Source: Chloroflexota bacterium
GTDB taxonomy: Bacteria > Chloroflexota > Limnocylindria > Limnocylindrales > CSP1-4
Length of the DNA stretch: 64,000 bases
Assembly: GCA_947475545.1 (NCBI GenBank)
Contig: CANJLL010000001.1
Span: 755,734-819,733, forward strand
Direction of reading: 5' to 3'
In this document: positions 4,220-53,578 of the stretch, in pieces
Position numbering within the stretch: position 1 is the stretch's first letter
How the letters are laid out: each line of letters begins with the position of its first letter
Made by a program: the position numbers and the translations under genes
The notes under the pieces: model-generated
Seen by the model: the letters and a program-made list of their open reading frames with translations, nothing else
Database searches by the model: none
Told to the model about the DNA's origin: nothing

Positions 4220-4256
4220 CAAGAGCGGGCTCCACTCAGCGCACAGGGAGGGTTCC

Positions 4257-5048
4257 ATGCCGAAGGACGGCTTCCTCACGGTCAACGGGCTGCGGATCCA
4301 CTACATCGACTTCCGTGGCGAGGGCCGCCCGGTCGTGGCGATCCACGGGATCGCGTCGGCCGGGATGGTCTGGCGCGAGCTTCGCGGTGCCCTTGGGCGC
4401 CGGGTGGTGGCCACGGACCTGCGCGGCCACGGCGACAGCCAATGGTCCCCGGACGGGACATATGGCTCGGCAGACGCGGCGGCGGACATCGCGGGGGTGA
4501 TCGCGAAGCTGGACCTTGGCGAGGTCGACGTGATCGGCCACAGCTGGGGCGGGCTGATCGCCATGTCGCTGGCCGACCGGCTGGGCGCGCAGGCGAGGCG
4601 GCTCGTCGTGGTGGACATCCCGCCCTCGTCTGCACAGAAGCCCGAGGAGGTCACGCCGCGGCAGGTCCAGTTCGACACTTGGGAGGCCGCGCTCGAGGCG
4701 GAGCGCAAGCGGAGCCCGCGTGGGTCAGACGCGGCCATCGCCAACCTTGCGGACCGGACCTACCGCCCGGCCGAAGGCGGCGGCTTCGTCAAGAAGCTGG
4801 ACCCGACGTTCCTGCGCCGCTGGGACTTCCGGACCGAGGACCACTGGGGCACGCTGGCCCGGCTGGCCCAGCCCACGCTGATCGTGAAGGGCGCGGGCTC
4901 CCCCACCGTCCCCGATGACGTCGCGCAGCGGATGGCGGATGCGCTGCCGAACGGCCGCTGGGTGACCGTTCCCGACACGGGACACGCAGTTCACGTGGAG
5001 AACCCGTCGGGGTTCATCGCCGAGGTGAAGCCCTTCCTGGAGGGCTAG
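4257..5048 (+). CDS. Alpha/beta-fold hydrolase
   Basis: HGIASAG, GHSWGG nucleophile elbow, and C-terminal DTGHAVHVE. ATG at 4257 is preceded by GGGAGGG with a 5-nt spacer. Confidence 0.85.
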   Translation: MPKDGFLTVNGLRIHYIDFRGEGRPVVAIHGIASAGMVWRELRGALGRRVVATDLRGHGDSQWSPDGTYGSADAAADIAGVIAKLDLGEVDVIGHSWGGLIAMSLADRLGAQARRLVVVDIPPSSAQKPEEVTPRQVQFDTWEAALEAERKRSPRGSDAAIANLADRTYRPAEGGGFVKKLDPTFLRRWDFRTEDHWGTLARLAQPTLIVKGAGSPTVPDDVAQRMADALPNGRWVTVPDTGHAVHVENPSGFIAEVKPFLEG

Positions 5049-5073
5049 CCGCGGTCCGACCTAGACTCCGCGG

Positions 5074-6096
5074 ATGAAGAAGATCGGCTTCCTCTCGTTC
5101 GGGCACTGGTCGGACTCGCCCCACTCCCAGGTGCGCTCCGCGTCCGACGCGCTGATCCAGTCCATCGAACTCGCCGAGGCGGTCGAGGACCTCGGCGGCG
5201 ACGGCGCCTACTACCGAGTCCATCACTTCGCCCAGCAGCTGGCATCCCCGTTCCCGCTCCTCGCCGCGGTGGGCGCGCGGACCAAGCGCATCGAGATCGG
5301 CACCGCCGTGATCGACATGCGCTACGAGAACCCGCTGTACATGGTCGAGGACGCGGGCGCCGCGGACCTGATCGCCGGCGGCCGACTCCAGCTGGGGATC
5401 AGCCGCGGCTCGCCGGAGCAGGTGATCGACGGGTTCCGGTACTTCGGCTATGCGCCGCCGGAGGGCGAGACCGACGCCGACATGGCCCGCCAGCACACCG
5501 ACGTCTTCCTCCAGGCCCTCTCGGGCGAGCGGTTCGCCCGGCCCAATCCCACGCCGATGTTCCCCAACCCGCCGGGCCTCCTCCGCCCCGAGCCGCACTC
5601 GCCCGGCCTGCGCGACCGGATCTGGTGGGGCGCCGGCTCGCGTGCGACGGCCGAATGGACGGCCCAGCAGGGCATGCACCTGATGTCGTCGACGCTGCTC
5701 ACCGAGGACGCGGGCGTCCCGTTCCACGTGCTCCAGGCGGAGCAGATCCAGCGCTTCCGCGACGCGTGGACGGCGGCGGGGCATTCCCGGGAGCCCCGGG
5801 TGTCGGTGAGCCGCAGCATCTTTGCGCTGGTCGACGACCGGGACCGGGCCTACTTCGGGCGCGGGAACCAGGCGAATGACCAGGTGGGGATGATCGACGC
5901 GCAGACCCGGGCGATCTTCGGGCGGTCCTACGCGGCAGAACCCGACGTGCTGGTCCGGGAGCTGGCGAACGACACGGCCATCCAGGCGGCGGACACGCTG
6001 CTCCTCACGGTCCCCAACCAGCTGGGCGTGGAGTACAACGCGCACGCCATCGAGAGCATCCTCAAGTACGTGGCGCCCGCCCTGGGCTGGCGGTAG
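5074..6096 (+). CDS. LLM-class (luciferase-like) flavin-dependent oxidoreductase
   Basis: MKKIGFLSFGHW... TIM-barrel LLM signature and length (~340 aa). Confidence 0.85.
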   Translation: MKKIGFLSFGHWSDSPHSQVRSASDALIQSIELAEAVEDLGGDGAYYRVHHFAQQLASPFPLLAAVGARTKRIEIGTAVIDMRYENPLYMVEDAGAADLIAGGRLQLGISRGSPEQVIDGFRYFGYAPPEGETDADMARQHTDVFLQALSGERFARPNPTPMFPNPPGLLRPEPHSPGLRDRIWWGAGSRATAEWTAQQGMHLMSSTLLTEDAGVPFHVLQAEQIQRFRDAWTAAGHSREPRVSVSRSIFALVDDRDRAYFGRGNQANDQVGMIDAQTRAIFGRSYAAEPDVLVRELANDTAIQAADTLLLTVPNQLGVEYNAHAIESILKYVAPALGWR

Positions 6097-6147
6097 GCCG
6101 ATCCGATCCGGCGCGGGGGCGCCGGGGCGCCGCGCCCGGGGAATCCC

Positions 6148-6963
6148 TCAGGCGTCGATCGTCTGGCCGCCGTCCACCGCCAGCGCGTGGCCAGTGACGA
6201 AGGAGGCCTCGTCGCTCGCCAGGAACAGGATCGCGTAGGCGATCTCCTCCGGCGCCGCCATCCGCCGGAGTGAGCGGGCCAGGTTGTCCATCCGCGCGCG
6301 GGTGGCGGCCGGGTCCGCCGAAGCGGCGATCCGCTCCTCCAGGCGCGGCGTCACCGTGGCGCCTGGGCAGACGCAGTTGACCCGGATCGCCGGGCCGTAG
6401 TCGATGGCCAGCTGGCGGGTCAGGTTGACCACCGCGGCCTTCGACGCGCAGTAGGCCGGGTAGGCGTCCGTCGCGAGGAGGCCGAACGACGAGGCGTTGT
6501 TGACGATGACCCCGCCGCCCTGGCGATCGAACATCGGCAGCACCGCGCGCACGCCGTGGAAGACGGAGTCCAGGTTCGTCCGGAGGACCGCGTGCCAGTC
6601 ATCCTCAGTGAGCTCGTGGAGGCGCGCGCGGATCCCGAACCCGGCGTTGTTGACGAGGATGTCGGCCCGGCCGAATTCGCCTTCGGTCACGTCGATCACG
6701 CGCGACCATTCGGCCGCCACGCCGGCGTCAGCCTCGACGTAGACCGCCCGGCCACTCCCCTGCCCCGCCGCCCCGTCCCGGGCGATCAGCTCGTCGATCC
6801 GCGGCGCGTCCCCGGGGCGTGCCAGCTCGGCGGGCCTGATGTCCGCGCAGACCACCGCGGCTCCCTCGCGCGCGAACAGGCGAGCCGTGGCGCGCCCGAT
6901 CCCCGAATCCGCCCCGGTGACGATCACCACCTTCCCCGTCAGCCGCCCCCGTCCGGGGCCCAT
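6148..6963 (-). CDS. SDR-family short-chain dehydrogenase/reductase
   Basis: GKVVIVTGADSGIG Rossmann motif, NNAG, and the YxxxK region (YCASK). The N-terminal Arg/Pro-rich extension in the track ORF is excluded. Confidence 0.8.
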   Translation of the reverse strand: MGPGRGRLTGKVVIVTGADSGIGRATARLFAREGAAVVCADIRPAELARPGDAPRIDELIARDGAAGQGSGRAVYVEADAGVAAEWSRVIDVTEGEFGRADILVNNAGFGIRARLHELTEDDWHAVLRTNLDSVFHGVRAVLPMFDRQGGGVIVNNASSFGLLATDAYPAYCASKAAVVNLTRQLAIDYGPAIRVNCVCPGATVTPRLEERIAASADPAATRARMDNLARSLRRMAAPEEIAYAILFLASDEASFVTGHALAVDGGQTIDA

Positions 6964-7064
6964 CTGCGGGTGCTCGTCGCTCACCGCCGGCACCTCCGCG
7001 CACGCTCGGCGCGACGTGCCCCGCCGCGCCGGGCCGCCGCCACCCAGGCCGCCACCAGCGCCGC

Positions 7065-7694
7065 CTACGTCCGGGCGATCATCAGGAACATCGGGTACTC
7101 GCGCTCCACCCCGCCGCGGACCTTGTGGACCGTGAGGACGTCGTCGAACTCGACCGACGCGAAGCCCGCCGCCAGCACCTTCTCGCCGAGCGGCTCTCGC
7201 TCGAAGCCGAAGTAGCCCTCGTACGCCTCGCGATGGAACGAGCCATCCTCCAGGTCCATGTCGGCCACCACCAGCACGCCGTCCGGGGCCAGGCAGGCGC
7301 GGAGTGCCCCGAGGATCTGATCCGTATCCATGATGTGGTGGAGGATCAGCTGGAGGCCGATGAGGTCGTAGCGCTCGGCCGGGAGCGGGTCGGTGGTCAG
7401 GTCCAGGCGCCGCCACTCGACGTCCGTCATCTCGCTGGCGGCGATCTTCTTCTGGACCTGGGCCAGCATCCCCTCGCTGATGTCGGCCAGCGTCATGTGG
7501 CCAACGAACGGCTTCAGGGCAAAGCCCAGCAGGCCCGTCCCGGCGCCGTACTCCAGCACCCGGGTGGCGGGCGTGGGTCCGACCAGCTCGTTGATGCGGC
7601 GCGCGACCGTCTGGGAGCGTGCGCGACGATCGGGCTCGTCATCCCAGGTGGCGGCTCGCTCGTCGTAGTCGCCGGTGGTGCCGAAGCCGGGCAT
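7065..7694 (-). CDS. Class I SAM-dependent methyltransferase
   Basis: VLEYGAGTGLLG (motif I) and a methyltransferase fold. Start placed at MPGFGTT. Confidence 0.8.
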   Translation of the reverse strand: MPGFGTTGDYDERAATWDDEPDRRARSQTVARRINELVGPTPATRVLEYGAGTGLLGFALKPFVGHMTLADISEGMLAQVQKKIAASEMTDVEWRRLDLTTDPLPAERYDLIGLQLILHHIMDTDQILGALRACLAPDGVLVVADMDLEDGSFHREAYEGYFGFEREPLGEKVLAAGFASVEFDDVLTVHKVRGGVEREYPMFLMIART

Positions 7695-7744
7695 GGGGAA
7701 GTCCTCCGCTGGCGGCGCCCGCGGCGCCGATGGAATTTGGCGCC

Positions 7745-8516
7745 CTAGAGCGCCTTGGGGAAGACCGCGAGCAGCCCGCCGTCGCACGGCAGGTCCACCC
7801 CGGTGATGAACGCAGCCTGGTCCGAGGCGAGGAAGAGCACGGCGCTGGCCTGGTCCTCGGGGCGGCCCCAGCGGCCCAGCGGGATGCTCCGCGCGGGGCC
7901 GGATCGCTCGAAGACATCCGCCTGGTAGCCGTAGCCCAGCGGCTGGCCGCTCTGCGTGGGCGTCACCGAGTTCACGCGGATCCCGTGCTGGGCAAGCTCC
8001 ACGGCGGCGACCCGGGTGAGGTTGAGCACGCCGCCCTTGGCGACCGGATAGGCGCCCTTGCCGATGTTCCCGCGGTGGCCGCTGGTGGACGCCATGTTGA
8101 CGATGGCGCCGCCGTGGCCCGCGGCGATCATCACCGCCGCGACCTTCCGGATGAGCAGGAACTGCGAGCGGAGCGTGACGCCGATCACGTATTCCCACTC
8201 GTCAAGCGAGGTCTCCAGCAGCGTCTTGTTGATGGTTGCGGCCGCGTTGTTGACCAGAAGGTGGACGCCGCCCAGCTGTCGGACGACTTGGTCCACTCCG
8301 CGGCCGACCTCGTCCTCGTCGCTGACGTCGGCGACGACCGCGATGGCGCGGCCACCGGCCGCCTCGATCTCAGCCGCGACAGCCTCCGCCCGGCCCTGGT
8401 CACGGTCCACCACGGCAACCGCGGCACCTTCCGCAGCGAACCGCAGGGCGATGGCCCGACCGATGTTCTGGCCCGCCCCCGTGACGATCGCAACCTTCCC
8501 GTCCAACTGTCCCACG
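7745..8516 (-). CDS. SDR-family oxidoreductase
   Basis: GKVAIVTGAGQNIG, NNAA, YPVAKGG. Divergent from the Fe-ADH gene. Confidence 0.8.
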
Positions 8517-8529
8517 CACCGCCTCCGGT

Positions 8530-8559
8530 TTGACACCGCCCCAATCCGGCGCCTACGGT
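8530..8559 (+). promoter_or_regulatory. Candidate sigma70-like promoter (TTGACA-18nt-TACGGT) in the divergent intergenic region ahead of the Fe-ADH gene
   Basis: Exact TTGACA at 8530-8535 and TACGGT at 8554-8559, about 100 nt upstream of the ATG at 8659. Confidence 0.3.
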
Positions 8560-8658
8560 ACACCTGCGATCCCGCCGACCGCGCGCCGCTCGCGACCCCC
8601 AGGGCGAGCGCCTCCGGCCCCGTTCCCGCCCCTCGCATCGATCGAAAGGTGACCGCTG

Positions 8659-9843
8659 ATGACTGCCGCCCCGGGCGCCCTCTCCCGCTATGCCGCCCCC
8701 ACCGAGCTCGTCTACGGACCGGGCAGCATCAAGCGACTGGGCGCCGAGGTGAAGCGCCTGGGTGGCACCAAGGTGCTCCTGGTGAGCGACGCGGGTCTGG
8801 CCAAGGTGGGCCTGGTGGCCAGGGCCGAGGCCTCGCTGACGGAGGCGGGCGTCGCCTTCACCACCGACTACAACGTCCCGCTCGACCCCACCTTCGCCGA
8901 CGTCGACCGCCTGGTTGCTGTCATCAAGGCAAACGGCTCGGACACCGTGGTCTCCGTGGGCTCCGGCTCCGTCCTGGCGGCCGGCCGGTCATCCGCGGTC
9001 GCGGCCACCCACGAGGGCCCCAGCAGCCTGATCGCCGGCGTGGACAAGTCGACCAACGACCCGCTGCTCTCCATCTGCGTGCCCACCACGGCGGGCTCCG
9101 GCGGCGAGGTGAGCCGGCAGGCCACCATCACCGACGATCACGGCCACAAGAGCGGCATCCAGGGCTGGGCCGTCGCGGCACGCCTTGCCATCCTGGACGC
9201 AGAGCTGTGCGTCTCGGCGCCCAGGCACCAGGCCGTGGCGTCCGGCGTTGACGCGCTGGTGCACGCGCTGGAGGCGTACGTCTCCAACCGCCACTCGCCC
9301 CTCACCGACGCACTGGCCCTGCCCGCCTTCGAGATCATGTACCACGACCTGCCCAAGGCGATCGCCAACCCCACGGTCGAGGTCTACGACCGCCTGCTCC
9401 TCGCCTCCAGCATGGCCAACCTGGCCTGCGGCAACGCCGGCCTGGGCCTGATCCACGGCATCAACAAGGGCATCACGTACCTGTTCCATACCGGCCGCTA
9501 CGCCACCCTGTCGTACGGCGACCTGCACAGCGTGATCATGCCGTTCGTCAACGCGTTCAACATCCAGGCCACCCCGGAGCGGTTCGCCGTGCTGGCGCGC
9601 CTGATGGGCGTCCCGGCCGACGTGCCGGATGCCGAGGCCGCGGCACGGAGCGTGGACCTGATCAAGGACTGGCTGGCCGGCCTGGGCGCCCCGCGACGCC
9701 TGCCCTGGGACAGCTGCCCGCCCGAGGACGTGGACACCATCGTCAACGACGTCAACGGCCGGATCATGGCCAAGGACAACCCGCGCACCAGCACGGCTGA
9801 GGACCTCCGCCAGATGGTCCTGGACTGCATCAAGGGCTGGTAG
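8659..9843 (+). CDS. Iron-containing (group III) alcohol dehydrogenase
   Basis: Fe-ADH family architecture, with a GGGS-like NAD site and His-rich metal-site region. GAAAGG RBS lies 9 nt upstream. Confidence 0.85.
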   Translation: MTAAPGALSRYAAPTELVYGPGSIKRLGAEVKRLGGTKVLLVSDAGLAKVGLVARAEASLTEAGVAFTTDYNVPLDPTFADVDRLVAVIKANGSDTVVSVGSGSVLAAGRSSAVAATHEGPSSLIAGVDKSTNDPLLSICVPTTAGSGGEVSRQATITDDHGHKSGIQGWAVAARLAILDAELCVSAPRHQAVASGVDALVHALEAYVSNRHSPLTDALALPAFEIMYHDLPKAIANPTVEVYDRLLLASSMANLACGNAGLGLIHGINKGITYLFHTGRYATLSYGDLHSVIMPFVNAFNIQATPERFAVLARLMGVPADVPDAEAAARSVDLIKDWLAGLGAPRRLPWDSCPPEDVDTIVNDVNGRIMAKDNPRTSTAEDLRQMVLDCIKGW

Positions 9844-9895: not shown

Positions 9896-12094
9896 TTGGC
9901 AGGCACGGATTCGGCTTCGGGGCCGGTGAGCGCGTCCGGCCATGCCCCGTCCGGCGCGCCCACGTCCGGTCGGGCCGGCGGCTACGTCGTCGGCATCGAC
10001 ACCGGCGGCACCTTCACGGACTGCGTTGTCATCGACGCCGCGGGCGTTGTCCACATCGACAAGGCGTTCTCCACCCCGCACGACCCATCCGTGGGCGCGC
10101 GCGACGCCCTGCGCAACGTGGCGGCGCGGATCGGTGTCAGCGACCGGGAGATCCTGGCCGCCTGCGTCCGATTCGCGCACGGCACCACCGTGGGTACCAA
10201 TGCGCTGATCCAGCGGACCGGGACCACGGTGGGCCTCGTGACCACCCGCGGGTTCGAGGACACGATGATCATCGCCCGCGGGCCCATGGGTCGGAATACG
10301 GGAATCCCGCTGGCGCAGGCACTGGACTTCGTCCGCAACGAGAAGCCCGCCCCCTACGTGCAACGGCGGCTCACCTTTGGTGTGGGCGAGCGGGTGGACC
10401 TGGACGGCGAGGTGGTGGCGCCGCTCCGCGAGGAGGACGTCCTGGCAGCCGCCGAGGCGCTGAGGGCAGCCGGCGCGGACTCCGTGGCCGTCTCGCTGCT
10501 CTGGTCGTTCCGCAACCCCGCCCACGAGGAGCGCGTCCGCGAGCTGCTCCAGGCGGCCGTCCCCGGGCTGCAGATCAGCCTCTCGTCCGAAGTCTCACCG
10601 GTCTCCGGCGAGTACGAGCGGACCATGACCACCGTCGTCAACGCCTACCTGGCACCGGTCATGACCCGCTACATCACGCAGCTCGCCGAAGGGCTGGCGG
10701 CCGACGGCCTGCGCTACCCGGTCCAGCTGATGACCTGCGCGGGCGGCACCATCTTCCCCGGCGACGTGGCGAGGCGCGCGGTCTCGCTAATCAACGGCGG
10801 GCCGGTGGGCGGCCTGGTGGCGGCGCGCGAGCTGGGCGTCACGCTGGGCTTCGAGAACGTCATCACCACGGACATGGGCGGCACCAGTTTCGACGTGGGG
10901 CTGATCCACCGCGGCGTCATTCGGACCGAGGCGTCCACCTTCGTCTCGCAGGGCGCGCCAGTCCAGCTGGAGGCGGCCAAGGTGGTCGCCATCGGCGCCG
11001 GCGGCGGGTCCATCGCCTGGACGGACGGCGAGCGGCTCCTGGTCGGGCCAAACAGCGCCTCGTCGCGGCCGGGTCCGGCCTGCTACGGCCACGGCGGCAG
11101 CGAGCCCACGGTCACCGACGCGCTCGTGGTGCTGGGGCTCCTGGACCCGGCGGCCTTCTTCGGCGGGCGAACGCAGCTCCGGGTGGACCTGGCGGAGGAC
11201 GCCATCCGTACGCGGCTGGCGGAGCCGCTGGGGCTGGACGTCCGAACCGCCGCCGCGGGCATCTACGAGATCGTCACCGCCCGGATGAGCGACCTGGTCC
11301 GCCAGACCACGGTGTCGGAGGGCCTGGACCCGCGCGAGTTCACGCTGCTGGCGTACGGCGGCGCCGCGCCGCTCCACGCCGCGGCCTATTCGGAGCCGCT
11401 CCGCGTTCGGGACGTGATCGTGCCGCCCACCTCGTCGGTCTTCTCGGCGCTGGGCTGCGCGCTGTCAGACATCCGATACACGTACGCGCGCTCGTCGCCG
11501 CTCCGCCTGGAGGCCGCCGGCGCCGATGCCACCTCCGACGCGATCTTCGCCGACCTGCAGCGCCGGGCCGTCACGGACATGGCGGCCAGCGGCCACGCTG
11601 CGGCGGACGGTGCCGGCCTCACGCTCCGTCGTCGCCTCGACGTCCGGTACGCCGGCCAGATGAGCGAGGTCACGATCGAGCTGAGCGATTCGGACGAGGA
11701 CCTGGCCGGACAGGTCCGGCGCGCCTTCGAGGCCGAGTACGCCATCCGCTTCGGGGCCATGACCATCCCGAAGAAGGGACGTATCGAGCTGATCACGTTC
11801 CGGCTGGAGGCCCTGGTCCCGGCGGCCCGCCCGCCGGCCGCCACGATTGCGACCCGCACCGGTTCTGGGGCGGGCGCCCTGGTCCCGCGGACCACGCGGC
11901 GCATCTTCACCCGCCAGTACGGCGAGGCAGAGGCGGGCATCTTCGACGGCGCCGGGCTGCTGGCCGGGGACCGCGTGGCCGGCCCATCGCTGATCTCCCG
12001 CTCCGACACCACGATCTTCATCCCCAGCGGCCACCGCGCCGAGGTGGACGCGTTCGGGAACGTCCACATCGACGTGCGGAGGTCGATCTCGTGA
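9896..12094 (+). CDS. Hydantoinase/oxoprolinase A-family subunit (HyuA-like; acetone carboxylase beta-like)
   Basis: GIDTGGTFTDCVVID N-terminal ATPase motif and ~730 aa length. The true start is probably downstream of the TTG at 9896, since the G/S-rich leader is unconvincing. Confidence 0.85.
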   Translation: MAGTDSASGPVSASGHAPSGAPTSGRAGGYVVGIDTGGTFTDCVVIDAAGVVHIDKAFSTPHDPSVGARDALRNVAARIGVSDREILAACVRFAHGTTVGTNALIQRTGTTVGLVTTRGFEDTMIIARGPMGRNTGIPLAQALDFVRNEKPAPYVQRRLTFGVGERVDLDGEVVAPLREEDVLAAAEALRAAGADSVAVSLLWSFRNPAHEERVRELLQAAVPGLQISLSSEVSPVSGEYERTMTTVVNAYLAPVMTRYITQLAEGLAADGLRYPVQLMTCAGGTIFPGDVARRAVSLINGGPVGGLVAARELGVTLGFENVITTDMGGTSFDVGLIHRGVIRTEASTFVSQGAPVQLEAAKVVAIGAGGGSIAWTDGERLLVGPNSASSRPGPACYGHGGSEPTVTDALVVLGLLDPAAFFGGRTQLRVDLAEDAIRTRLAEPLGLDVRTAAAGIYEIVTARMSDLVRQTTVSEGLDPREFTLLAYGGAAPLHAAAYSEPLRVRDVIVPPTSSVFSALGCALSDIRYTYARSSPLRLEAAGADATSDAIFADLQRRAVTDMAASGHAAADGAGLTLRRRLDVRYAGQMSEVTIELSDSDEDLAGQVRRAFEAEYAIRFGAMTIPKKGRIELITFRLEALVPAARPPAATIATRTGSGAGALVPRTTRRIFTRQYGEAEAGIFDGAGLLAGDRVAGPSLISRSDTTIFIPSGHRAEVDAFGNVHIDVRRSIS

Positions 12095-14367
12095 GCAGCG
12101 CCCAGGGGGTGGACGCGCCCGACGGGGGCGTTCGTCCGTCGACGGTGGATCCCATCACCTTCGAGGTCATCAAGCACCGCCTGCTCCAGATCAACGACGA
12201 GCAGGGCATCACCATCAAGACGCTCTCGTCCTCGCCCATCGTGGTGGAGGGCAACGACTTCAACGTGGGCCTGTTCACGGCCCGCGGGGACATCGCCGTG
12301 GCCGGGCCGTACGTGCTGACCCACGTCACGACCATGGACTACATCATCAAGACCATCCTGGCCGAGACCGACCCGGCCGACATCACCGACGGCGATGTCT
12401 TCCTGGTCAACGACCCGTACATGGGCGCGCTCCACCAGAACGATGTGGCGTTCCTGTCGCCCATCTACCTCGACGGCCGGCTCGCGATGTGGGCCGGCAA
12501 CGTCCTCCACCACGCGGACCTGGGCGGCATCGACGAAGGCTCGTTCTGCGTCAACGCCACCAACGTCTTCCAGGAGGCGCCGCGCTACTTCCTGAAGATC
12601 GTGTCGGCCGGGCGGCTCAACCACGAGGTGGAGCGGACCTTCACATCCAACTCGCGCCTGGGCGAGATGGTCGCCATCGACCTGCGGGCCCAGCTGGGCG
12701 CCCTCTCCGTGGTCCGCGAGCGGCTGACGGAGTTGGTCGCGGACGTCGGGCTGGCCACCGTCGAGGAGGTCATGACCCGGACCGTGAACCTGTCCGAGCG
12801 GCGGCTGCGGCGGCGGATCGCCGGGCTGCCCGACGGCTCGTGGGTGACCGAGGTCTTCATGGACGGCGACCGGGTGGGCTCCGAGCGGATCATCCGCGTC
12901 CGCCTCCGGCTGACCAAGTCGGGCGATCGGCTCACCTTCGACTACGAGGGGACGGACCGCCAGTCGCAGGGCGCGGTCAACGCGCCGTACTCCGCCTGCT
13001 ACGCGGGCACCATCGTCCCCGTCTATACGCTGCTGTGCGGCGGCGAGATCGACTGGAACGCGGCGGCCAAGCACCTGGTGGACGTGGTAGCGCCGCTGGG
13101 CTCCGTGATGAACGCGGAGTTCCCGGCCGCGGTCAGCATCTGCTCCGTGGGCTTCACGTGGCTGGCCACGGCCGCCGCGATGAAGGTGGTCGCGATGATG
13201 CTCTCTGAATCCGAGGAGTTCCGCGACCGGGTGGTCCCCTCCTGGAACGTCGCGTGCAACGGCAACAACATCTTCGGCCGGGACCGGACGGGCAAGCTGG
13301 TGGGGGCGCTGCTCTCCGACCATCGCGGCGGCGGGGCCGGGGGTCGTTCGTTCGCGGACGGCTTCGACTTCTCCGGCAAGGCCACGTCACACCTGGGCTT
13401 CCTCTCCAACGTGGAGGCGCAGGAGTGGAAGCTGCCGCTGCTGTACGCCTTCCGGCGCGCGCTGCCGGACAGCGGCGGTCCGGGGATGCACCGCGGCGGC
13501 ATGACGGCGATGGCGGCGGTGGTGATCCACAAGGGGTCCGACGCCATCTGGAAGTCCACCAACACGGCGGGCTCGGACCAGTCCAACGCATCGGGGATCC
13601 ACGGCGGCTACCCGGGGGCCGGGTCGCAGTGCTCGGTGGTGCGCGACTCGCGGATCTGGGAGCAGTACGCCGAGGGGTCCGTGGGGCTGTCGCTGGATGA
13701 TCTGGGCGGCGCGGTGGAGCACCTCCCGTCCAAGTCCGAGGGGAAGCTGGGCGCCGCGGACGTGTTCGCGTTCTACCCGCCGGGCGGGGGTGGGTACGGG
13801 GACCCGCTGGATCGCGCGCCGGGGCGGGTGCTGACCGACGTGCTCAACGGGGCGGTCACGGCCGATGGCGCGCGGCGGTTCTACGGGGTGGTGATCGCGG
13901 ACGGGGCGGTGGACGCGGCGGCCACGGACCTGCTGCGCGCGCACCTGCGCGAGGCGCGGCTGGGCGACCGGGCGGTGGGCCTGGCGGCCGAAAGTGTGGT
14001 CGCCGGCGAAGTCGGCGCGGGCGGCGACCCGGGCGGCGGCGAAGCCCTGGTGCACCGGCATCTCATCGGGGAGTACCTGGAGGTCGTCGGTCCCGCCGCG
14101 ACGCCCGAAACGTCTCCCGCCACCCACGCCTCGCCGGGCGTCATCCGCTGCCGCCGCTGCGGCACCGTCCTCTCGGTCGAAGGCCGGGATCCCCGCGGCG
14201 GCGCAATCCGCCGGACCGAGCCCCTCGCCCACGCCGGCCCGTGGATCGCGCAGCGTTTCGGCGGCTACAGCCCCAACTTCGTGCTGGACGAGGCCATCTG
14301 CCCCGGCTGCGGCACGCTCTTCGACGTGGAGGAGCGCCTCGGGGCGGACATCGCGGGCCGCGGCTGA
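12091..14367 (+). CDS. Hydantoinase B/oxoprolinase-family subunit with a fused C-terminal Cys4 zinc-ribbon domain
   Basis: GTGA overlap with the upstream gene. The HyuB core runs to ...GGGYGDPLDRAPGRVLTDVLNG. It then continues ~135 aa in frame with two CxxC pairs (IRCRRCGTV ... ICPGCGTLF). Confidence 0.85.
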   Translation: MSSAQGVDAPDGGVRPSTVDPITFEVIKHRLLQINDEQGITIKTLSSSPIVVEGNDFNVGLFTARGDIAVAGPYVLTHVTTMDYIIKTILAETDPADITDGDVFLVNDPYMGALHQNDVAFLSPIYLDGRLAMWAGNVLHHADLGGIDEGSFCVNATNVFQEAPRYFLKIVSAGRLNHEVERTFTSNSRLGEMVAIDLRAQLGALSVVRERLTELVADVGLATVEEVMTRTVNLSERRLRRRIAGLPDGSWVTEVFMDGDRVGSERIIRVRLRLTKSGDRLTFDYEGTDRQSQGAVNAPYSACYAGTIVPVYTLLCGGEIDWNAAAKHLVDVVAPLGSVMNAEFPAAVSICSVGFTWLATAAAMKVVAMMLSESEEFRDRVVPSWNVACNGNNIFGRDRTGKLVGALLSDHRGGGAGGRSFADGFDFSGKATSHLGFLSNVEAQEWKLPLLYAFRRALPDSGGPGMHRGGMTAMAAVVIHKGSDAIWKSTNTAGSDQSNASGIHGGYPGAGSQCSVVRDSRIWEQYAEGSVGLSLDDLGGAVEHLPSKSEGKLGAADVFAFYPPGGGGYGDPLDRAPGRVLTDVLNGAVTADGARRFYGVVIADGAVDAAATDLLRAHLREARLGDRAVGLAAESVVAGEVGAGGDPGGGEALVHRHLIGEYLEVVGPAATPETSPATHASPGVIRCRRCGTVLSVEGRDPRGGAIRRTEPLAHAGPWIAQRFGGYSPNFVLDEAICPGCGTLFDVEERLGADIAGRG

Positions 14368-14596: not shown

Positions 14597-15835
14597 CTAC
14601 CCCGTCACCCTTGCCGCCGCGGCGCGGCGGGCAGCCAGCCGCTCCGGGCTCATCACCAGCGTGGTGATCAGCAGCAGCACCGAGAAGAACGCCAGGAGCA
14701 GCAGCGACCCCTGGAAGTTGCCCGTGAAGTCGCGGGCCGCGCCAAGCAGGAACGGCGCAGCCGCACTCACCCCGAAGCCGCCCGCCAGCATCATCGACGC
14801 CAGCGCCCCGACGTCCTGCGGCCGCTCCGCCAGGTCCAGCGGCAGCGTCAGCGCGATGGGGAAGAGCGTCCCGAGACAGGCCCCGCAGAAGAACGCCCCC
14901 AGGTAGCCGATGTCGGGCACCACCACCAGCAGCAGGCAGGCCACGATCAGCAGCGAGGTGGCGAGGCCCATGTACAGCCGGCGCGAGCCGCGCACGTCCG
15001 CCACCCGGGTCACCATCCAGGTCGCCGGGATCCCGCCCAGCGTCATCGCCGTGGGGAGCAGCCCCGCCGACGTCGCGTCCCAGCCGCGCTCCTGGTAGAC
15101 CGCCGGCAGCCACGAGAGCAGCGCCTGGAAGATGCCGGCCCGCAGGGCGAACGACGCCACCAGCATCCACGCCACCCGGTCGCGCAGCGGCCAGTGCGGC
15201 CTGGACGCCGCCGTCCGCTTCGCCTCCGTCGGGTTGTTGCCCGTTGAGAGGTGCCAGACCAGCGCCATCACCAGCGACACGACGGAGACCGCGATCAGCG
15301 CCTCACGCCAGCCGCCAAACAGGAGGGCCAGCGGCGCCGCGATCGCCGACGACAGGGCCGCCCCGGCCTGATACCCGTTCGTGTACATCCCGGTCGCGAA
15401 CGCGGGCCGCTTGCTGAACCGCTCCTTGACCGCGATGGGCAGCAGCGCCCCACCGATCCCGATCCCGATCCCGATCGGCACGGTGGCCGCCATCACCAGG
15501 AACGCGTTCGGCGCGATCGCGCGCCCGAAGCCGAAGATCGCGATCACCAGCAGCGACAGGGTCATCCCCCAGCGCGTGCCGAAGAGCTGCGCCGAGGTGG
15601 GCCCCGCCAGCGCGAAGATGCCCATGCAGACCAGCGGGATGGTCGAGAGGAGGCCTGCCACAGCGTGGGAGACGACGAGGTCCGTCTGGATCATGGGGAT
15701 GAGCGGTCCCACCGCCATCATCTGTGGCCGCGTCGCGAGGCCGCCCATGAACAGCGCGAACAGGCCCAGGGTGGTTCCCAGGTCGACCTTGGCGATGGGG
15801 CCGCCCGGGGCGGCCGAACCACCAGCCCTGCTCAC
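14597..15835 (-). CDS. MFS transporter, CynX/NimT-like subfamily
   Basis: 12-TM MFS protein. Its start overlaps the stop of the upstream Mo-hydroxylase gene (15832-15835). Confidence 0.85.
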   Translation of the reverse strand: MSRAGGSAAPGGPIAKVDLGTTLGLFALFMGGLATRPQMMAVGPLIPMIQTDLVVSHAVAGLLSTIPLVCMGIFALAGPTSAQLFGTRWGMTLSLLVIAIFGFGRAIAPNAFLVMAATVPIGIGIGIGGALLPIAVKERFSKRPAFATGMYTNGYQAGAALSSAIAAPLALLFGGWREALIAVSVVSLVMALVWHLSTGNNPTEAKRTAASRPHWPLRDRVAWMLVASFALRAGIFQALLSWLPAVYQERGWDATSAGLLPTAMTLGGIPATWMVTRVADVRGSRRLYMGLATSLLIVACLLLVVVPDIGYLGAFFCGACLGTLFPIALTLPLDLAERPQDVGALASMMLAGGFGVSAAAPFLLGAARDFTGNFQGSLLLLAFFSVLLLITTLVMSPERLAARRAAAARVTG

Positions 15836-18186
15836 GCCTTCGACCCCGAGGGTGCCGCGGCGCCCTTGAACGCCGCCGCGATCGACTCCGGGAGCACCGG
15901 GCAGCGATCCAGCTCCGCCCCGAACGGCGAGAGCGCGTCCTCCACCGCCCCGATGATCGCGGCCGGCACGGCGATCGTCCCGGCCTCGCCTACCCCCTTG
16001 ACCCCGAGCGGGTTCCGCGTGCTGGGCGTCTCCATGTGGTGCATCTCCACGTCGGGCACGTCACTGGCGCGCGGGAGGCCGTAGTCCATCAGTGTCCCGT
16101 TCACCAATTGCCCATCCTCGTCGTAGACCAGGCGCTCGAACAGCGCCCCGCCGAGTCCCTGCGCAATGCCGCCCTGGATCTGCCCCTCCACGATGAGCGG
16201 GTTGATGATCCGGCCGCAATCGTGGACCACCACGTAGCGGAGGATGCTGACCGCGCCGGTCAGCGGATCCAGCTCCACCACCGCCGCGTGGACGCCGCTG
16301 GCGAAGGTGACCGTGTCGGGCGCGAAGGCGGATTCGGCCTGCAGCCCGGTGGAGTCGGCGGAGGCCTGCCGGCCGATCCCTGGGGCCGAGGCGGACGCCA
16401 GCTGGCCGGTGCCGAACCCGCGGTCGGGCGACCCGGCCACGAAGACCCGGCCGTTCTCGAAGATCAGGTCGGCGACCGCGACCTCCAGGCGCTCCGAGGC
16501 CAGGCGGGCGACCTGGTCGCGGACGTCGTGTGCCGCGGCGTGGACCGCGTTGCCCACGACCACGGCGGTCCGGCTGGCGATGGTGCCGCCGCCCCACGGG
16601 TGCGTGAGGGTGTCACCGCTGATGACGCGGACCCGGTCCATGGGGATGCCCAGCGCGTCGCCCACCAGTTGGGCCAGCACTGTCTCGTGGCCCTGCCCCT
16701 GGGACGGGAGCGCCGTGGTGACGATGGCCTCGCCGCCCCCGGTCAGACGGACGCGGGCGGTCTCGAAGGGGCCCACGCCCGTCCCCTCGATGTACGTCCC
16801 GAATCCGATCCCGATGTGCCGCCCCTCTGCGCGCCCGGCAGCCTGCTCAGCCCGCAGCTCGTCGTAGCGGAGGGCGGCGAGGACCCCGTCCAACGCGCCG
16901 TGGAAGTCGCCGCCGTCCAGCACCAGCTGCTTCCCGTCCCGGTAGAGGATGCCGGCGTCGTAGGGCATCTCCTGAGCCGTGACCATGTTCCGGCGGCGCA
17001 GCTCGGCCGGGTCCATGCCCAGCGCCCGGGCGGCGCGGTCCACGATCCGGTCCATCGCGAAGATGGCCTCTGGGCGGCCCGCGCCGCGGTAGGCGGACAG
17101 CGGCGCCTTGTTGGTCAGGACCACCGTGCACTCGATCGCCAGTGCCGGGATCCGGTAGACCGACTGGAGGTGGGATGTGGTGTTGTACGGGACGATCAGG
17201 TTCTCGACGTTGCTGGCGCCAGCATCCACGAGGTAGTCGTCCCTCATGCCCAGGATGTGGCCCTCCGCGTCCAGGGCGAGGGAGATCCGGTGGCGCTGCC
17301 CGCGCGAGTGGATGGCGGACAGGAAGCTCTCGCGGCGCGTGTCCATCCAGCGCACCGGGCGGTTGAGCCGGCGAGCCAGCTCGGCCACCACGAGCTCCTC
17401 GGGGTAGACCATCGACTTGACGCCAAAGCCGCCGCCCACGTCCGGGGCGATGACGCGGAGCCGCGCCTCCGGGATGCCCAGGCATCGGACGATCGCATCG
17501 CGCAGCCAGTGCGGTGCCTGGTTGCTGGACCAGACCGTGAGGCCGCCACGCCGGTCCGGCACGCCCAGCGCGCCGCGCGCCTCCAGCGGCACCCCCGTCT
17601 GGCGCTCCATGGTGAAGGTGCCCTCGACGATGGTGTGTGCGGCCGCAAAGGCAGCGTCGGCGTCGCCCTTGGTGACCGTGAAGTGGAGCGACAGGTTGGT
17701 GCCGTGGTCCGGCTGGACAAGCGGCGTGTCTGCGTCCAGCGCGCGCTCCGGGTCCGTGTTGACCGGCAGCGGGTGCAGGTTCAGCTCCACCAACCGTGTT
17801 GCGTCGTCCGCGACGTAGCGGTTGGAGGCCGCGACCACCGCGACCGGCTCACCGGCAAACCGCACGTCGCCCGCGGCCAGGAGCCGGATGTGCTCGGGGT
17901 GGAGCGTTGGGTTGATCGCCGCGCGCAGGGCGTCGTTGGGCGGGAACCAGGTTGGATGGGGATGCGGCCCGTTCGCAGCACCCAGCGATTCGGCCGTGAA
18001 CACGCCCGCCACCCCGGGGAGCGCCGCGGCGGCCGTCGTGTCCACGCCGACGATCCGCGCGTGCGCGTAGGGGCTGCGGACGAACGCGAGGTGGAGTGCG
18101 CCCGGGGCCGCGATGTCGTCGACGTACTCGCCGAGGCCGCGCAGGAGGCGAGGGTCCTCGACCCGGCGAATCCGCTGCCCGAACAC
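15832..18186 (-). CDS. Xanthine dehydrogenase-family molybdopterin-binding large subunit (CoxL form II-like), orphan
   Basis: ~784 aa with DVGGGFG, the AYRGAGRPEA active-site loop (not the CODH form I AYRCSFR), and GVGE. No M/S subunit genes adjacent. Confidence 0.9.
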   Translation of the reverse strand: MFGQRIRRVEDPRLLRGLGEYVDDIAAPGALHLAFVRSPYAHARIVGVDTTAAAALPGVAGVFTAESLGAANGPHPHPTWFPPNDALRAAINPTLHPEHIRLLAAGDVRFAGEPVAVVAASNRYVADDATRLVELNLHPLPVNTDPERALDADTPLVQPDHGTNLSLHFTVTKGDADAAFAAAHTIVEGTFTMERQTGVPLEARGALGVPDRRGGLTVWSSNQAPHWLRDAIVRCLGIPEARLRVIAPDVGGGFGVKSMVYPEELVVAELARRLNRPVRWMDTRRESFLSAIHSRGQRHRISLALDAEGHILGMRDDYLVDAGASNVENLIVPYNTTSHLQSVYRIPALAIECTVVLTNKAPLSAYRGAGRPEAIFAMDRIVDRAARALGMDPAELRRRNMVTAQEMPYDAGILYRDGKQLVLDGGDFHGALDGVLAALRYDELRAEQAAGRAEGRHIGIGFGTYIEGTGVGPFETARVRLTGGGEAIVTTALPSQGQGHETVLAQLVGDALGIPMDRVRVISGDTLTHPWGGGTIASRTAVVVGNAVHAAAHDVRDQVARLASERLEVAVADLIFENGRVFVAGSPDRGFGTGQLASASAPGIGRQASADSTGLQAESAFAPDTVTFASGVHAAVVELDPLTGAVSILRYVVVHDCGRIINPLIVEGQIQGGIAQGLGGALFERLVYDEDGQLVNGTLMDYGLPRASDVPDVEMHHMETPSTRNPLGVKGVGEAGTIAVPAAIIGAVEDALSPFGAELDRCPVLPESIAAAFKGAAAPSGSKA

Positions 18187-25687: not shown

Positions 25688-25811
25688 CGCAACGGAGCCA
25701 ACCTCGAGGTTCGGCGGGCGGACCGGCGGCAAGGCCGGCCCCCACCGCCTGGCCGGCGACCGATCCGCGGGTCGTCGGTGATCATCCGGTGAGGCGGTCG
25801 GGAGGTTCACG

Positions 25812-29137: not shown

Positions 29138-29179
29138 CCCGCTGACCCGCGCGACCCCACGAGCGCAGGAGACCCCCTG

Positions 29180-53567: not shown

Positions 53568-53578
53568 TCCGCCGCCTA

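What the first reader, a model, noticed from the sequence alone, without database searches (positions are those of the whole stretch)
9896..14367. Hydantoinase A/B pair whose B subunit is fused to a Cys4 zinc ribbon: acetone-carboxylase-like beta-alpha-gamma architecture in two genes
The HyuB-like ORF continues ~135 aa beyond the usual C-terminus in the same frame. The extension has two CxxC pairs (CRRC...CPGC) about 55 residues apart, which makes a Cys4 zinc-ribbon signature. ATP-dependent acetone and acetophenone carboxylases are A/B homologs plus a separate small zinc-binding gamma subunit. Their gene order is beta (A-like), alpha (B-like), gamma. Here the order is identical, but the gamma-like module is fused to the B subunit. 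The genes are GTGA-coupled, and an Fe-ADH plus two SDRs lie just upstream. That fits an alcohol to ketone to ATP-dependent carboxylation route better than a simple hydantoinase.
Basis: partly seen in the sequence, partly recalled or inferred. Interest (0 to 1): 0.6.

Follow-up and report, generated by a model that had tools for sequence, protein, structure and literature searches.

The report
Hydantoinase B fused to carboxylase gamma subunit

Summary
A HyuA-like gene (9896/9926-12094) and a 758-aa HyuB-like gene (12091-14367) overlap by GTGA. The B protein continues about 130 aa past the usual end, and the only cysteines after residue 600 are C687, C690, C737 and C740.

The tail is a diverged acetone-carboxylase gamma (PF08882) domain, not a generic zinc ribbon and not a read-through artefact.
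- It is 39% identical to a free-standing 96-aa PF08882 protein. That protein is encoded 18 bp after an unfused HyuB (45% identical to this B) in a split A-B-gamma operon.
- Profile comparison to Pfam-positive fused tails gives 98.4% probability.
- The AlphaFold model of the tail matches only Acx-gamma and Apc small-subunit chains in the PDB.
- At least 120 homologue clusters keep the fusion with all four Cys invariant.

In an NJ tree, every gamma-bearing B subunit, including Acx-alpha and Apc-beta, separates from caprolactamase, N-methylhydantoinase and tail-less B proteins (bootstrap 96/100).

A dehydrogenase gene is the usual neighbour. It is an Fe-ADH in the closest relatives and an orthologous SDR across the clade.

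Chemistry and substrate are unproven. Carboxylation of a carbonyl compound is the leading hypothesis (about 0.45), and lactam hydrolysis is the main rival. I rate this a new variant of a known kind.

The parts
9896..12094 (+). A subunit (HyuA-like ATP-binding subunit). It corresponds to Acx-beta, Apc-alpha and CapA. The probable start is the GTG at 9926.
   Evidence: Pfam Hydant_A_N, Hydantoinase_A and Hydant_A_C. ATP motifs DTGGTFTD, DMGGT and SRPGP are present. PDB scores: CapA 412, Apc-alpha 393, NMHase 376, Acx-beta 329 bits.
12091..13965 (+). B core (aa 1-625) of the fused gene. It corresponds to Acx-alpha, Apc-beta and CapB and carries the metal tetrad D56, H115, D118, H140.
   Evidence: Pfam Hydantoinase_B, 1.5e-116. 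PDB scores: 5l9w_A 156, 7hk5_A 152, 6yra_B 141, 5m45_A 106 bits. The tetrad is invariant in alignment A2 and aligns to Apc-beta D65/H123/D126/H148. Foldseek TM 0.72-0.85.
13966..14040 (+). Gly/Ala-rich linker (aa 626-650) at the position where the split homologue has its stop codon and an 18-bp spacer.
   Evidence: pLDDT is below 50 at 633-635 and 642-649. The unfused 614-aa B in L091 ends opposite about aa 624-627.
14041..14367 (+). Gamma-subunit-like domain (aa 651-751) plus a short tail and the stop codon. It is a diverged Acetone_carb_G domain.
   Evidence: 39% identity to the free-standing PF08882 protein P0146, E 8e-22. hhalign A1 vs A3: 98.4%. The A3 tails all hit PF08882, and the A3 profile hits 5l9w_C and 5m45_C at 1e-9. 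The tail model's top five Foldseek PDB hits are only Acx-gamma and Apc small-subunit chains.
14149..14160 (+). First Cys pair, C687-x-x-C690 (CRRC).
   Evidence: Invariant in A1 and near-invariant to invariant in A2. Aligns to Acx-gamma Cys74/Cys76.
14299..14310 (+). Second Cys pair, C737-x-x-C740 (CPGC).
   Evidence: Invariant. Aligns to Acx-gamma Cys124/Cys127 in the shared motif CPxCGTL.DVE.
12078..12094 (+). Translational coupling signal: GGAGG Shine-Dalgarno, then the GTGA start/stop overlap.
   Evidence: Read directly from the sequence.
8659..9843 (+). Group III iron-containing alcohol dehydrogenase, first gene of the probable three-gene operon.
   Evidence: Pfam Fe-ADH and ADH_Fe_C. The same position is kept in the homologues at 79% and 65% identity. 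Nearest solved relatives are methanol and 1,3-propanediol dehydrogenases; no NCBIfam equivalog cut-off is reached.
7745..8515 (-). Classical SDR ('SDR2'), transcribed divergently here. It is a conserved partner of the A/B-gamma pair.
   Evidence: Orthologues at 47-53% identity lie directly upstream of A on the same strand in L005, L006, L012 and L013, and with an MFS gene between in L004. In L009 the orthologue is 86% identical and divergent. A 42%-identical SDR lies before A in a Binatia gamma-fused clade, L040.

Best explanation
The two translationally coupled genes encode a heteromeric ATP-dependent enzyme of the hydantoinase/oxoprolinase-ketone carboxylase family. It has the three modules of acetone carboxylase: an A-type ATP-binding subunit, a B-type metal subunit and a gamma module. 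Here gamma is fused to the C-terminus of B. The shown parts are as follows. The A protein has the ASKHA-type ATP motifs. The B core keeps the Asp-His-Asp-His metal site that is essential in caprolactamase and binds Mn in acetone carboxylase. Residues 651-751 are a diverged gamma domain whose four invariant Cys correspond to the Zn ligands of Acx-gamma and the Apc small subunit. The B core belongs to the gamma-associated branch of the family, together with Acx-alpha and Apc-beta, not to the lactamase branch. The inferred mechanism follows the solved homologues. A binds ATP and phosphorylates the enol or enolate form of a carbonyl substrate and, as in acetone carboxylase with its single ATP-binding subunit, probably also bicarbonate. 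The activated species pass through an internal tunnel to the metal site in B, where a C-C bond forms to give a beta-keto acid. The Zn-gamma domain is a structural clamp on B, far from the active sites, and is not catalytic. The substrate is probably a small carbonyl compound made or consumed by the adjacent Fe-ADH and/or the conserved SDR. My sub-confidences are: the gamma identity and a real, conserved fusion 0.95; membership of the gamma-bearing branch 0.8; carboxylase chemistry 0.45; any particular substrate below 0.1.
For: Domains and motifs. Fusion conserved in at least 120 clusters of 690-760 aa at 50-85% identity, covering 96-98% of the query, from Actinomycetota, Alphaproteobacteria, Binatia and Clostridia. 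The four Cys are invariant. Gamma identity: the A1 profile hits 5m45_C at E 0.03 with both Cys pairs in register; 14 of 48 tails reach PF08882 hits, best 1.9e-5; fused tails of more distant B clades (A3) all pass the PF08882 cut-off and their profile hits 5l9w_C at 1.5e-9 and 5m45_C at 5e-9; A1 vs A3 gives 98.4% probability, E 1e-14; the tail is 39% identical to the free-standing PF08882 protein P0146, which lies in a split A(703)-B(614)-gamma(96) operon whose B is 45% identical to this B. Structure: full-length model pLDDT 85, pTM 0.89, tail mostly above 88; that model also hits 5svc_C and 5l9w_C; the tail-only model has pLDDT 88, and its top five PDB hits are only Acx-gamma chains (TM 0.64-0.65, rmsd 2.4-3.4 A) and 5l9w_C, with the next hit at E about 1. 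Tree: the split 'all gamma-bearing B plus Acx-alpha plus Apc-beta' against 'CapB, NMHase and tail-less B' has bootstrap 96/100. Context: Fe-ADH-A-B-gamma in the window, in L009 and in the P0017 contig; SDR-A-B-gamma in L005, L006, L012, L013 and L040. Literature: gamma is reported only for Acx and Apc and as absent from all Hyd complexes, and its Zn is structural (PMC5214803, PMC5543143).
Against: No residue or motif is known that separates carboxylases from lactamases in this family. The metal tetrad and the ATP motifs are shared, and caprolactamase also needs bicarbonate (PMC8453981, PMC5214803). Only two gamma-bearing enzyme types have been characterised, so 'gamma implies carboxylase' rests on two data points. 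The A subunit is roughly equidistant from CapA (412 bits), Apc-alpha (393) and Acx-beta (329), and NCBIfam scores it highest against caprolactamase CapA, far below the cut-off. Acx Glu89 is Asp here, as in Apc and CapB. Neighbourhoods across the clade also hold genes suggestive of N-heterocycle or aromatic-acid breakdown: a lone Mo-hydroxylase large subunit, amidase, UbiD and AMDase-family genes. That fits lactam opening as well. The Fe-ADH is nearest to enzymes acting on primary alcohols and aldehydes. The tree is NJ with four reference sequences and a locus sample biased by the search patterns.
Confidence: 0.5

Rival explanations
1. It is an ATP-dependent lactam, imide or hydantoin hydrolase (Hyd-type chemistry) that happens to retain a gamma domain. 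A phosphorylates the lactim form of a cyclic amide. The metal site in B hydrolyses it. The gamma domain is only a structural relic. The substrate would be an oxidised N-heterocycle, for example one made by the nearby Mo-hydroxylase or a dehydrogenase.
For: The catalytic motifs are the same as in CapAB (PMC8453981). The A subunit scores highest against CapA in the PDB and in NCBIfam. A lone Mo-hydroxylase large subunit lies near the pair in the window, L006 and L009. Amidase, isochorismatase-like and AMDase-family genes (Asp/Glu/hydantoin racemase superfamily) occur in related loci. From my own knowledge, a Mo-hydroxylase paired with a hydantoinase-like lactamase is proposed for anaerobic indoleacetate degradation; PMC5214803 mentions the lactamase.
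Against: The B core groups with Acx-alpha and Apc-beta and away from CapB and NMHase (bootstrap 96). Gamma is reported as absent from all known Hyd complexes (PMC5214803). The most conserved neighbour is a dehydrogenase (SDR or Fe-ADH), not an amidase or carbamoylase.
Confidence: 0.3
2. It is an ATP-dependent enzyme of this family with a third chemistry, neither carboxylation nor lactam hydrolysis. One example would be phosphorylation-driven activation of an enolisable carbonyl for isomerisation, hydration or another group transfer at the B metal site.
For: Neighbourhoods vary widely across the clade (UbiD, AMDase x2, luciferase-like monooxygenase, beta-hydroxyacid dehydrogenase, NMT1-type ABC transporters). 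The clade is 24-26% identical in structure-based alignment to the characterised B subunits. The family is known to be functionally under-sampled (PMC5214803).
Against: There is no positive evidence. All characterised members are carboxylases or lactam hydrolases.
Confidence: 0.15
3. The extension is an artefact (a frameshift or a lost stop codon in this assembly), or a generic zinc ribbon unrelated to gamma subunits, for example a nucleic-acid-binding or regulatory add-on.
For: The single sequence hits only generic zinc-ribbon Pfam models weakly, and PF08882 at 12.6-14.2 bits, below its cut-off of 21. Two short free-standing tail proteins (P0002, P0004) appear among close homologues.
Against: The identical 758-aa protein is found on at least 24 independent contigs. 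At least 120 homologue clusters carry the same in-frame tail. P0002 comes from a contig in which every gene is fragmented. The specific gamma homology and fold are shown.
Confidence: 0.02

Closest known systems
Acetone carboxylase AcxABC (Xanthobacter autotrophicus; PDB 5M45, 5SVB, 5SVC)
   Same: Gene and module order is A-like, B-like, gamma. There is a single ATP-binding subunit, with no second alpha' subunit. The B subunit has a His/Asp metal site. Gamma has a Cys4 Zn site whose four ligands align with C687, C690, C737 and C740. The tail model superposes on the gamma chains (TM 0.64-0.65). The B core is in the same gamma-associated branch of the tree.
   Different: Gamma is fused to B and lacks the roughly 65-residue N-terminal part of the 168-aa AcxC. 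The B core is only 23-24% identical and scores lower (106 bits) than against Apc-beta. Acx Glu89 is Asp56 here. The first Cys pair is CxxC, not CxC. Substrate and ATP stoichiometry are unknown.
[quoted passage not shown]
   Same: It gives the best-scoring B-type relative (5l9w_A: 156 bits, Foldseek E 6e-41, TMt 0.82). Its small Zn(Cys4) subunit is of similar size (129 aa) and wraps the B-type subunit. The C-terminal arm of the B-type subunit contacts gamma, which makes a fusion plausible.
   Different: No alpha' (ApcA) or epsilon gene is present. The gene order differs (apcABCDE has gamma before alpha). NCBIfam ApcC and ApcD scores (405 and 183 bits) are far below their cut-offs of 1500.
Split three-gene relatives: HyuA(703)-HyuB(614)-gamma(96, PF08882), locus L091 (uncharacterised, metagenomic)
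   Same: This is the closest arrangement found. Its B is 45% identical over aa 18-624. Its gamma is 39% identical to the tail and shares the motifs GEYLE...RCxxCG...PL..AGP...SP.F.L.E..CPGC. The order A-B-gamma is the same.
   Different: Gamma is a separate gene 18 bp after B, and function is unknown. The window clade's gamma has diverged further (AGPW / SPNF motifs), so Pfam no longer detects it.
ATP-dependent lactamases of the Hyd branch: caprolactamase CapAB (PDB 6YRA) and N-methylhydantoinase (PDB 7HK5, 9H03)
   Same: They share the A and B folds, the ATP motifs, the Asp-His-Asp-His metal site, and a two-polypeptide or single-polypeptide composition. The A subunit scores slightly higher against CapA than against the carboxylase subunits.
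   Different: They have no gamma module. Their B subunits end about 130-180 residues earlier. They fall on the opposite side of the B tree (bootstrap 96).

Membership tests
Hydantoinase/oxoprolinase-ketone carboxylase superfamily (A plus B subunits) | A subunit with the Hydant_A_N, Hydantoinase_A and Hydant_A_C domains and the ASKHA ATP motifs DxGGTxTD, DxGGT and GxxPGP | tested here: met
   Pfam E-values 7e-44, 8e-84 and 9e-11. DTGGTFTD, DMGGT and SRPGP are present.
Hydantoinase/oxoprolinase-ketone carboxylase superfamily (A plus B subunits) | [quoted passage not shown] | tested here: met
   PF02538 at 1.5e-116. D56, H115, D118 and H140 are invariant in 35 homologues and align to Apc-beta D65/H123/D126/H148.
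Acetone_carb_G (PF08882) gamma subunit | Score above Pfam's gathering threshold (21 bits) | tested here: not met
   The window tail scores 12.6-14.2 bits, E 0.055-0.16. Only 14 of 48 clade members give any PF08882 hit at E up to 0.1.
Acetone_carb_G (PF08882) gamma subunit | Homology to bona fide members, shown by more sensitive comparison | tested here: met
   39% identity, E 8e-22, to the PF08882 protein P0146. hhalign gives 98.4% to an alignment whose 10 members all pass PF08882. The A1 profile hits 5m45_C at E 0.03 in register.
Acetone_carb_G (PF08882) gamma subunit | Four conserved Cys at the positions of the Zn ligands (Acx Cys74/76/124/127; Apc Cys22/25/75/78) | tested here: met
   C687, C690, C737 and C740 are invariant and align to the ligand positions (PMC5543143, PMC5214803). 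Actual Zn binding cannot be tested here.
Acetone_carb_G (PF08882) gamma subunit | Gamma-subunit fold | tested here: met
   The tail model (pLDDT 88) has as its top five PDB hits only Acx-gamma and Apc small-subunit chains: probability 1.0, TM 0.54-0.65.
Acetone_carb_G (PF08882) gamma subunit | Encoded directly after the B-type gene and associated with the B-type subunit | tested here: met
   It is fused in frame to B. The split relative has gamma 18 bp after B. The full-chain pTM of 0.89 implies confident packing on the core.
Acetone carboxylase (AcxABC) proper | Close sequence relationship to AcxA/AcxB, long Acx-type subunits, and the Glu89 gating ligand | tested here: not met
   Of the solved B-type relatives, the B core scores lowest against Acx-alpha (106 bits, 23-24% identity). 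The position equivalent to Glu89 is Asp56. The gamma lacks the Acx-specific N-terminal extension.
Acetone carboxylase (AcxABC) proper | Acetone plus bicarbonate plus ATP giving acetoacetate plus AMP plus 2 Pi | not testable with these tools
   This needs an enzyme assay.
Acetophenone carboxylase (ApcABCDE) | A second ATP-binding subunit alpha' (ApcA) and an epsilon subunit, with gene order apcABCDE | tested here: not met
   Only one A-type gene lies next to B in the window and in all related loci. ApcA, ApcC and ApcD NCBIfam scores are far below their cut-offs.
Hyd branch (ATP-dependent lactamases: CapAB, OplAB, HyuAB, NMHase) | Two-module alpha-beta composition without gamma, and B clustering with the Hyd branch | tested here: not met
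   A gamma module is present. In the NJ tree CapB and NMHase fall with the tail-less B proteins, on the other side of a split with bootstrap 96/100. CapA and CapB NCBIfam scores (555 and 166 bits) are below the cut-off of 1000.

The most novel reading that the evidence does not exclude
The window clade and its sister clades, all with gamma fused to B, could be a large uncharacterised class of minimal two-polypeptide, biotin-independent, ATP-dependent carboxylases. They would fix bicarbonate onto carbonyl compounds supplied by a partner dehydrogenase, on substrates other than acetone or acetophenone. The covalent B-gamma link would show that gamma is an obligatory structural part of the carboxylase branch.
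Probability: 0.35. Interest if true: 0.7.

Novelty: new variant of a known kind. Interest (0 to 1): 0.5.

Why it matters
Biotin-independent ATP-dependent ketone carboxylases are known from only two enzyme types, and the role of their gamma subunit is unexplained. Four things follow from this finding.
- Gamma is not confined to Acx and Apc. It marks a whole branch of B subunits and exists free, fused, or degenerate without Cys.
- In a widespread clade the domain has diverged so far that standard annotation misses it. These proteins are labelled only 'hydantoinase B/oxoprolinase family'.
- The published rule of thumb that two genes mean a hydrolase and three or more mean a carboxylase cannot be applied by counting genes.
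- The window gives a compact two-gene target, with a candidate dehydrogenase partner, for finding new CO2-fixing biocatalysts. A natural fusion also offers a way to test what gamma does.

Tried and rejected
- phmmer of the tail alone against the PDB found no gamma subunit. It gave only a marginal, evidently spurious CyaY/frataxin hit at E 0.026.
- Single-sequence Pfam and NCBIfam scans gave only sub-threshold generic zinc-ribbon hits.
- A word-index homologue search with the tail alone returned just five proteins.
With the full-length alignment it used generic family motifs, so most of the 80 loci were non-fused HyuB genes. That turned out to be useful as an outgroup.
- The hint of free-standing tail genes (P0002, P0004) was followed up and rejected as a product of a fragmented assembly.
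- The organism could not be identified. The cluster look-up returned no names, and the window has no tRNA genes or Rfam matches. The nearest named relatives are Streptosporangiales and Actinobacteria MAGs.
- Neither the A subunit, nor the metal tetrad, nor SDR or Fe-ADH subtyping discriminated carboxylase from hydrolase or suggested a substrate.
- Literature searches for a described B-gamma fusion, for PF08882, and for a hydantoinase with an AMDase cluster found nothing relevant.
- The tools do not return model coordinates, so Cys-Cys distances in the model could not be measured.
Full report
OBSERVATION. The ORF list shows a 732-aa ORF at 9896-12094 (+) and a 758-aa ORF at 12091-14367 (+). A gene caller on an identical metagenomic contig starts the first gene at the GTG at 9926, giving 722 aa. 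The two genes overlap in GTGA at 12091-12094, and a GGAGG lies 8 nt upstream of the B start. Pfam assigns Hydant_A_N, Hydantoinase_A and Hydant_A_C to the first protein and Hydantoinase_B (aa 20-572, E 1.5e-116) to the second. Alignments to every solved B-type subunit stop at aa 616-625, which leaves about 130 extra residues. The only cysteines after residue 600 are C687, C690, C737 and C740, in CRRC and CPGC. The description is therefore correct apart from small numerical details.

NOT AN ARTEFACT. The identical 758-aa protein is read on at least 24 independent contigs. A homologue search returned at least 120 clusters of 690-760 aa, at 50-85% identity, that cover 96-98% of the query. They come from Actinomycetota, Alphaproteobacteria, Binatia and others, and sources name them only 'N-methylhydantoinase B' or 'hydantoinase B/oxoprolinase family protein'. 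Their C-termini share the pattern GEYLE..RCxxCG..PL..AGPWLALRW.G.SPNF.L.E..CPxCG.L.DV.E. In a 48-sequence tail alignment (A1) and a 35-sequence full-length alignment (A2), the four Cys are invariant or nearly so. The one apparent free-standing tail gene among close relatives (P0002, 75 aa) lies on a contig where every gene is broken into fragments, so it reflects assembly errors.

THE TAIL IS A DIVERGED GAMMA SUBUNIT. Single-sequence searches are inconclusive. PF08882 (Acetone_carb_G) scores 12.6-14.2 bits against a cut-off of 21, and phmmer against the PDB finds nothing relevant. Five more sensitive tests agree.
1. The A1 profile hits Acx-gamma (5m45_C, 5svb_C) at E 0.03 across both Cys pairs in register. 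It hits the Apc small subunit (5l9w_C) at E 0.35.
2. Among 80 genomic loci recovered with family motifs, several much more distant HyuB genes (26-35% identical cores) also carry C-terminal Cys4 tails. They come from Burkholderiales, Acidimicrobiaceae, Solirubrobacterales, Conexibacter, Deltaproteobacteria, Binatia and Syntrophobacteraceae. All ten of these tails (A3) pass the PF08882 threshold, best E 7e-11. Their profile hits 5l9w_C at 1.5e-9 and 5m45_C at 5e-9. A1 against A3 gives hhalign probability 98.4%, E 1e-14, over 84 columns.
3. An exhaustive search of 1.84 billion representatives with A1 found 302 clusters at E up to 1e-3. These include real free-standing proteins of 92-104 aa that start with Met at the domain boundary. 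One of them, P0146, is a precomputed PF08882 member and is 39% identical to the window tail (E 8e-22).
4. In its contig, P0146 sits 18 bp after an unfused 614-aa HyuB that is 45% identical to the window B over aa 18-624. That HyuB in turn follows a 703-aa HyuA. This is the split A-B-gamma version of the window's two genes, in the same order as acxABC (PMC5214803).
5. AlphaFold2 models are confident. The full-length model has pLDDT 85.3 and pTM 0.89, with the tail mostly above 88. The tail-only model has pLDDT 88.4. In a Foldseek search of the PDB, the tail model's top five hits are four Acx-gamma chains (TM 0.64-0.65, rmsd 2.4-3.4 A over 92-94 columns, probability 1.0) and the Apc small subunit (TM 0.54); the next hit has E about 1. 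The full-length model also picks up 5svc_C and 5l9w_C in addition to the B-type chains.

The published Zn ligands are Cys74/76/124/127 in Acx-gamma (PMC5543143) and Cys22/25/75/78 in Apc-gamma (PMC5214803). They correspond to the four Cys here. Both papers regard the Zn as structural and distant from the active sites.

WHERE THE ENZYME SITS IN THE FAMILY. The B core scores 156 bits against Apc-beta (5l9w_A), 152 against N-methylhydantoinase, 141 against CapB and 106 against Acx-alpha. The A subunit scores 412 (CapA), 393 (Apc-alpha), 376 (NMHase) and 329 (Acx-beta). No NCBIfam equivalog cut-off is approached. Raw scores therefore do not decide the question. I built an NJ tree of 88 B cores. 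It used the window clade, the other loci, and four reference sequences transcribed from the alignments. Every B protein associated with a gamma module falls on one side. That set includes the fused Cys4 forms, a group with a degenerate Cys-less tail, and Acx-alpha and Apc-beta, whose gamma is a separate gene. CapB, NMHase and all tail-less B proteins fall on the other side. With 63 taxa and 100 bootstrap replicates, that split is recovered 96 times. The narrower set, the window clade plus the other Cys4-fused clades plus Acx-alpha and Apc-beta, is recovered 90 times, and the window clade itself 100 times. Weidenweber et al. state that gamma is absent from all Hyd complexes and that gene number (2, 3, or 4-5) distinguishes Hyd, Acx and Apc (PMC5214803). 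The window enzyme breaks the gene-count rule but respects the underlying link between gamma and the non-Hyd branch. Caveats are the NJ method, the four references and the biased locus sample.

WHAT CANNOT BE DECIDED FROM SEQUENCE. The ATP motifs in A (DTGGTFTD, DMGGT, SRPGP) and the metal tetrad in B (D56, H115, D118, H140) are shared by carboxylases and lactamases. In caprolactamase the tetrad is essential and the enzyme also needs bicarbonate (PMC8453981). Weidenweber et al. explicitly failed to find signatures that discriminate the functions. There is no second A-type (alpha') gene and no epsilon gene. If the enzyme is a carboxylase, it must work like Acx, with one nucleotide site activating both substrates in turn, rather than like Apc.

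GENOMIC CONTEXT. In the window the order is as follows:
- alpha/beta hydrolase (+)
- luciferase-like monooxygenase (+)
- SDR1 (-), methyltransferase (-) and SDR2 (-)
- Fe-ADH (+), A (+) and B-gamma (+)
- MFS transporter (-)
- a lone Mo-hydroxylase large subunit (-)

Fe-ADH-A-B-gamma recurs in the homologues at 79% identity (L009) and 65% identity (P0017 contig). Across the wider clade (50-60% identity), an orthologue of SDR2 at 47-53% identity sits directly upstream of A on the same strand in L005, L006, L012 and L013. In L004 an MFS gene lies between. A 42%-identical SDR precedes A in a Binatia gamma-fused clade. So a dehydrogenase is the most consistent partner, in 8 of 12 window-clade contexts examined. 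This parallels the route from secondary alcohol to ketone to carboxylase for isopropanol/acetone and 1-phenylethanol/acetophenone, which I cite from established knowledge and PMC5214803. The partner could equally reduce a beta-keto-acid product.

The Fe-ADH is nearest to methanol, 1,3-propanediol and lactaldehyde dehydrogenases and reaches no equivalog cut-off. SDR2 is a generic classical SDR, nearest to 2,3-butanediol dehydrogenase and FabG types. Other recurrent neighbours are two AMDase-family genes after B-gamma (L005, L006, L012), UbiD (L006, L008, L011), NMT1-type binding proteins and the Mo-hydroxylase large subunit (window, L006, L009). They do not point to one substrate and leave the lactamase reading open.

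VERDICT. The enzyme is not a member of Acx or Apc proper, nor of the Hyd branch. It is a two-gene, three-module member of the gamma-bearing branch. Carboxylation of a carbonyl compound supplied by a dehydrogenase is the most likely chemistry (about 0.45), ATP-dependent lactam hydrolysis is the main rival (about 0.3), and other chemistry takes about 0.15. I found no paper describing a B-gamma fusion. Pfam would, however, show the two-domain architecture for the more canonical fused clades, so the fusion as such is probably visible in domain databases. What is new is the cryptic, diverged gamma in this widespread clade, the branch-wide association of gamma with B, and the failure of gene counting as a functional predictor. 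I rate it a new variant of a known kind with interest 0.5.

Noticed in passing
L019 (Streptosporangium sp.), L029 (Amycolatopsis rubida), L048 (Streptomyces sp.), L065 (Brevibacterium sp.); B genes at about 7001-9140 in each locus: One actinobacterial HyuB clade carries a C-terminal tail with the gamma layout, but most Zn-ligand Cys are replaced (WYCPASG...DEFxSPxCGTLL). It looks like a degenerate, probably Zn-free gamma domain. The clade is monophyletic (bootstrap 100) and lies on the gamma-bearing side of the B tree.
   Followed up: partly
L023, L026, L027, L030, L032, L036, L051, L075, L081, L082, L084, L086, L087, L090 and others (Bradyrhizobium, Aureimonas, Rubrobacter, Leucobacter, Arthrobacter, Streptomyces, Mesorhizobium): Another HyuB clade, on the hydrolase side of the tree, has a different conserved C-terminal extension of about 120 aa with no CxxC pair (e.g. 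...DPE.VA..YR.G.I..LDVIR.H.VILDWG.G.LLP.ST.QFRE.F.RRS...W). It is unrelated to gamma and its function is unknown.
   Followed up: no
window 15832-18186 (-); also L006 239-2596 and L009 8299-10680: A xanthine-dehydrogenase/CODH-family Mo-hydroxylase large subunit (784 aa) stands alone, with no adjacent FAD or Fe-S subunit genes. It overlaps the MFS transporter gene (14597-15835) by 4 bp. A similar lone large subunit recurs near the A/B-gamma pair in two other loci.
   Followed up: partly
L005 5117-13371 (Cryobacterium glaciale), L006 4888-13780 (Hyphomicrobiales MAG), L012 2956-12725 (Xanthobacteraceae MAG): There is a recurrent cluster: SDR, A, B-gamma, AMDase-family gene, one intervening gene, a second AMDase-family gene, then an NMT1- or TctC-type binding protein. 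This looks like a conserved pathway module of unknown substrate.
   Followed up: partly
window 29323-31203 (+); L006 15830-17518, L008 1821-3278, L011 3262-4569: UbiD-family (prFMN-type) decarboxylase genes occur about 15 kb from the pair in the window. They lie close to the pair in three related loci and directly upstream of A in L011.
   Followed up: no
window about 14092-14133 (B aa 668-681): The window's gamma domain has a Pro/Thr/Ala-rich insertion (PAATPETSPATHAS) between the first two strand pairs. It is absent from the more distant homologues and has low model confidence (pLDDT about 62).
   Followed up: no
L013 3926-6995 (Clostridia MAG): The A gene is split into two overlapping ORFs. 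ORF 3926-6109 carries Hydant_A_N and the first part of Hydantoinase_A, and ORF 6018-6995 carries the rest. This is either a frameshift or a true split.
   Followed up: no
window 34399-38130 (+), 25782-27998 (-), 27950-29785 (-), 45034-47190 (+), 52802-54967 (+): Several ORFs of 600-1240 aa have no Pfam match at E up to 1e-5. In a 71% G+C genome some may be wrong-frame shadows of real genes, since long ORFs overlap on the opposite strand. The correct frames were not worked out.
   Followed up: no
window 55036-58581 (-), 60945-62771 (+), 20025-21539 (-): The window also holds a carbamoyl-phosphate synthase large subunit (CarB), a GMC oxidoreductase and an aldehyde dehydrogenase. The window has no tRNA genes and no Rfam matches.
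   Followed up: no
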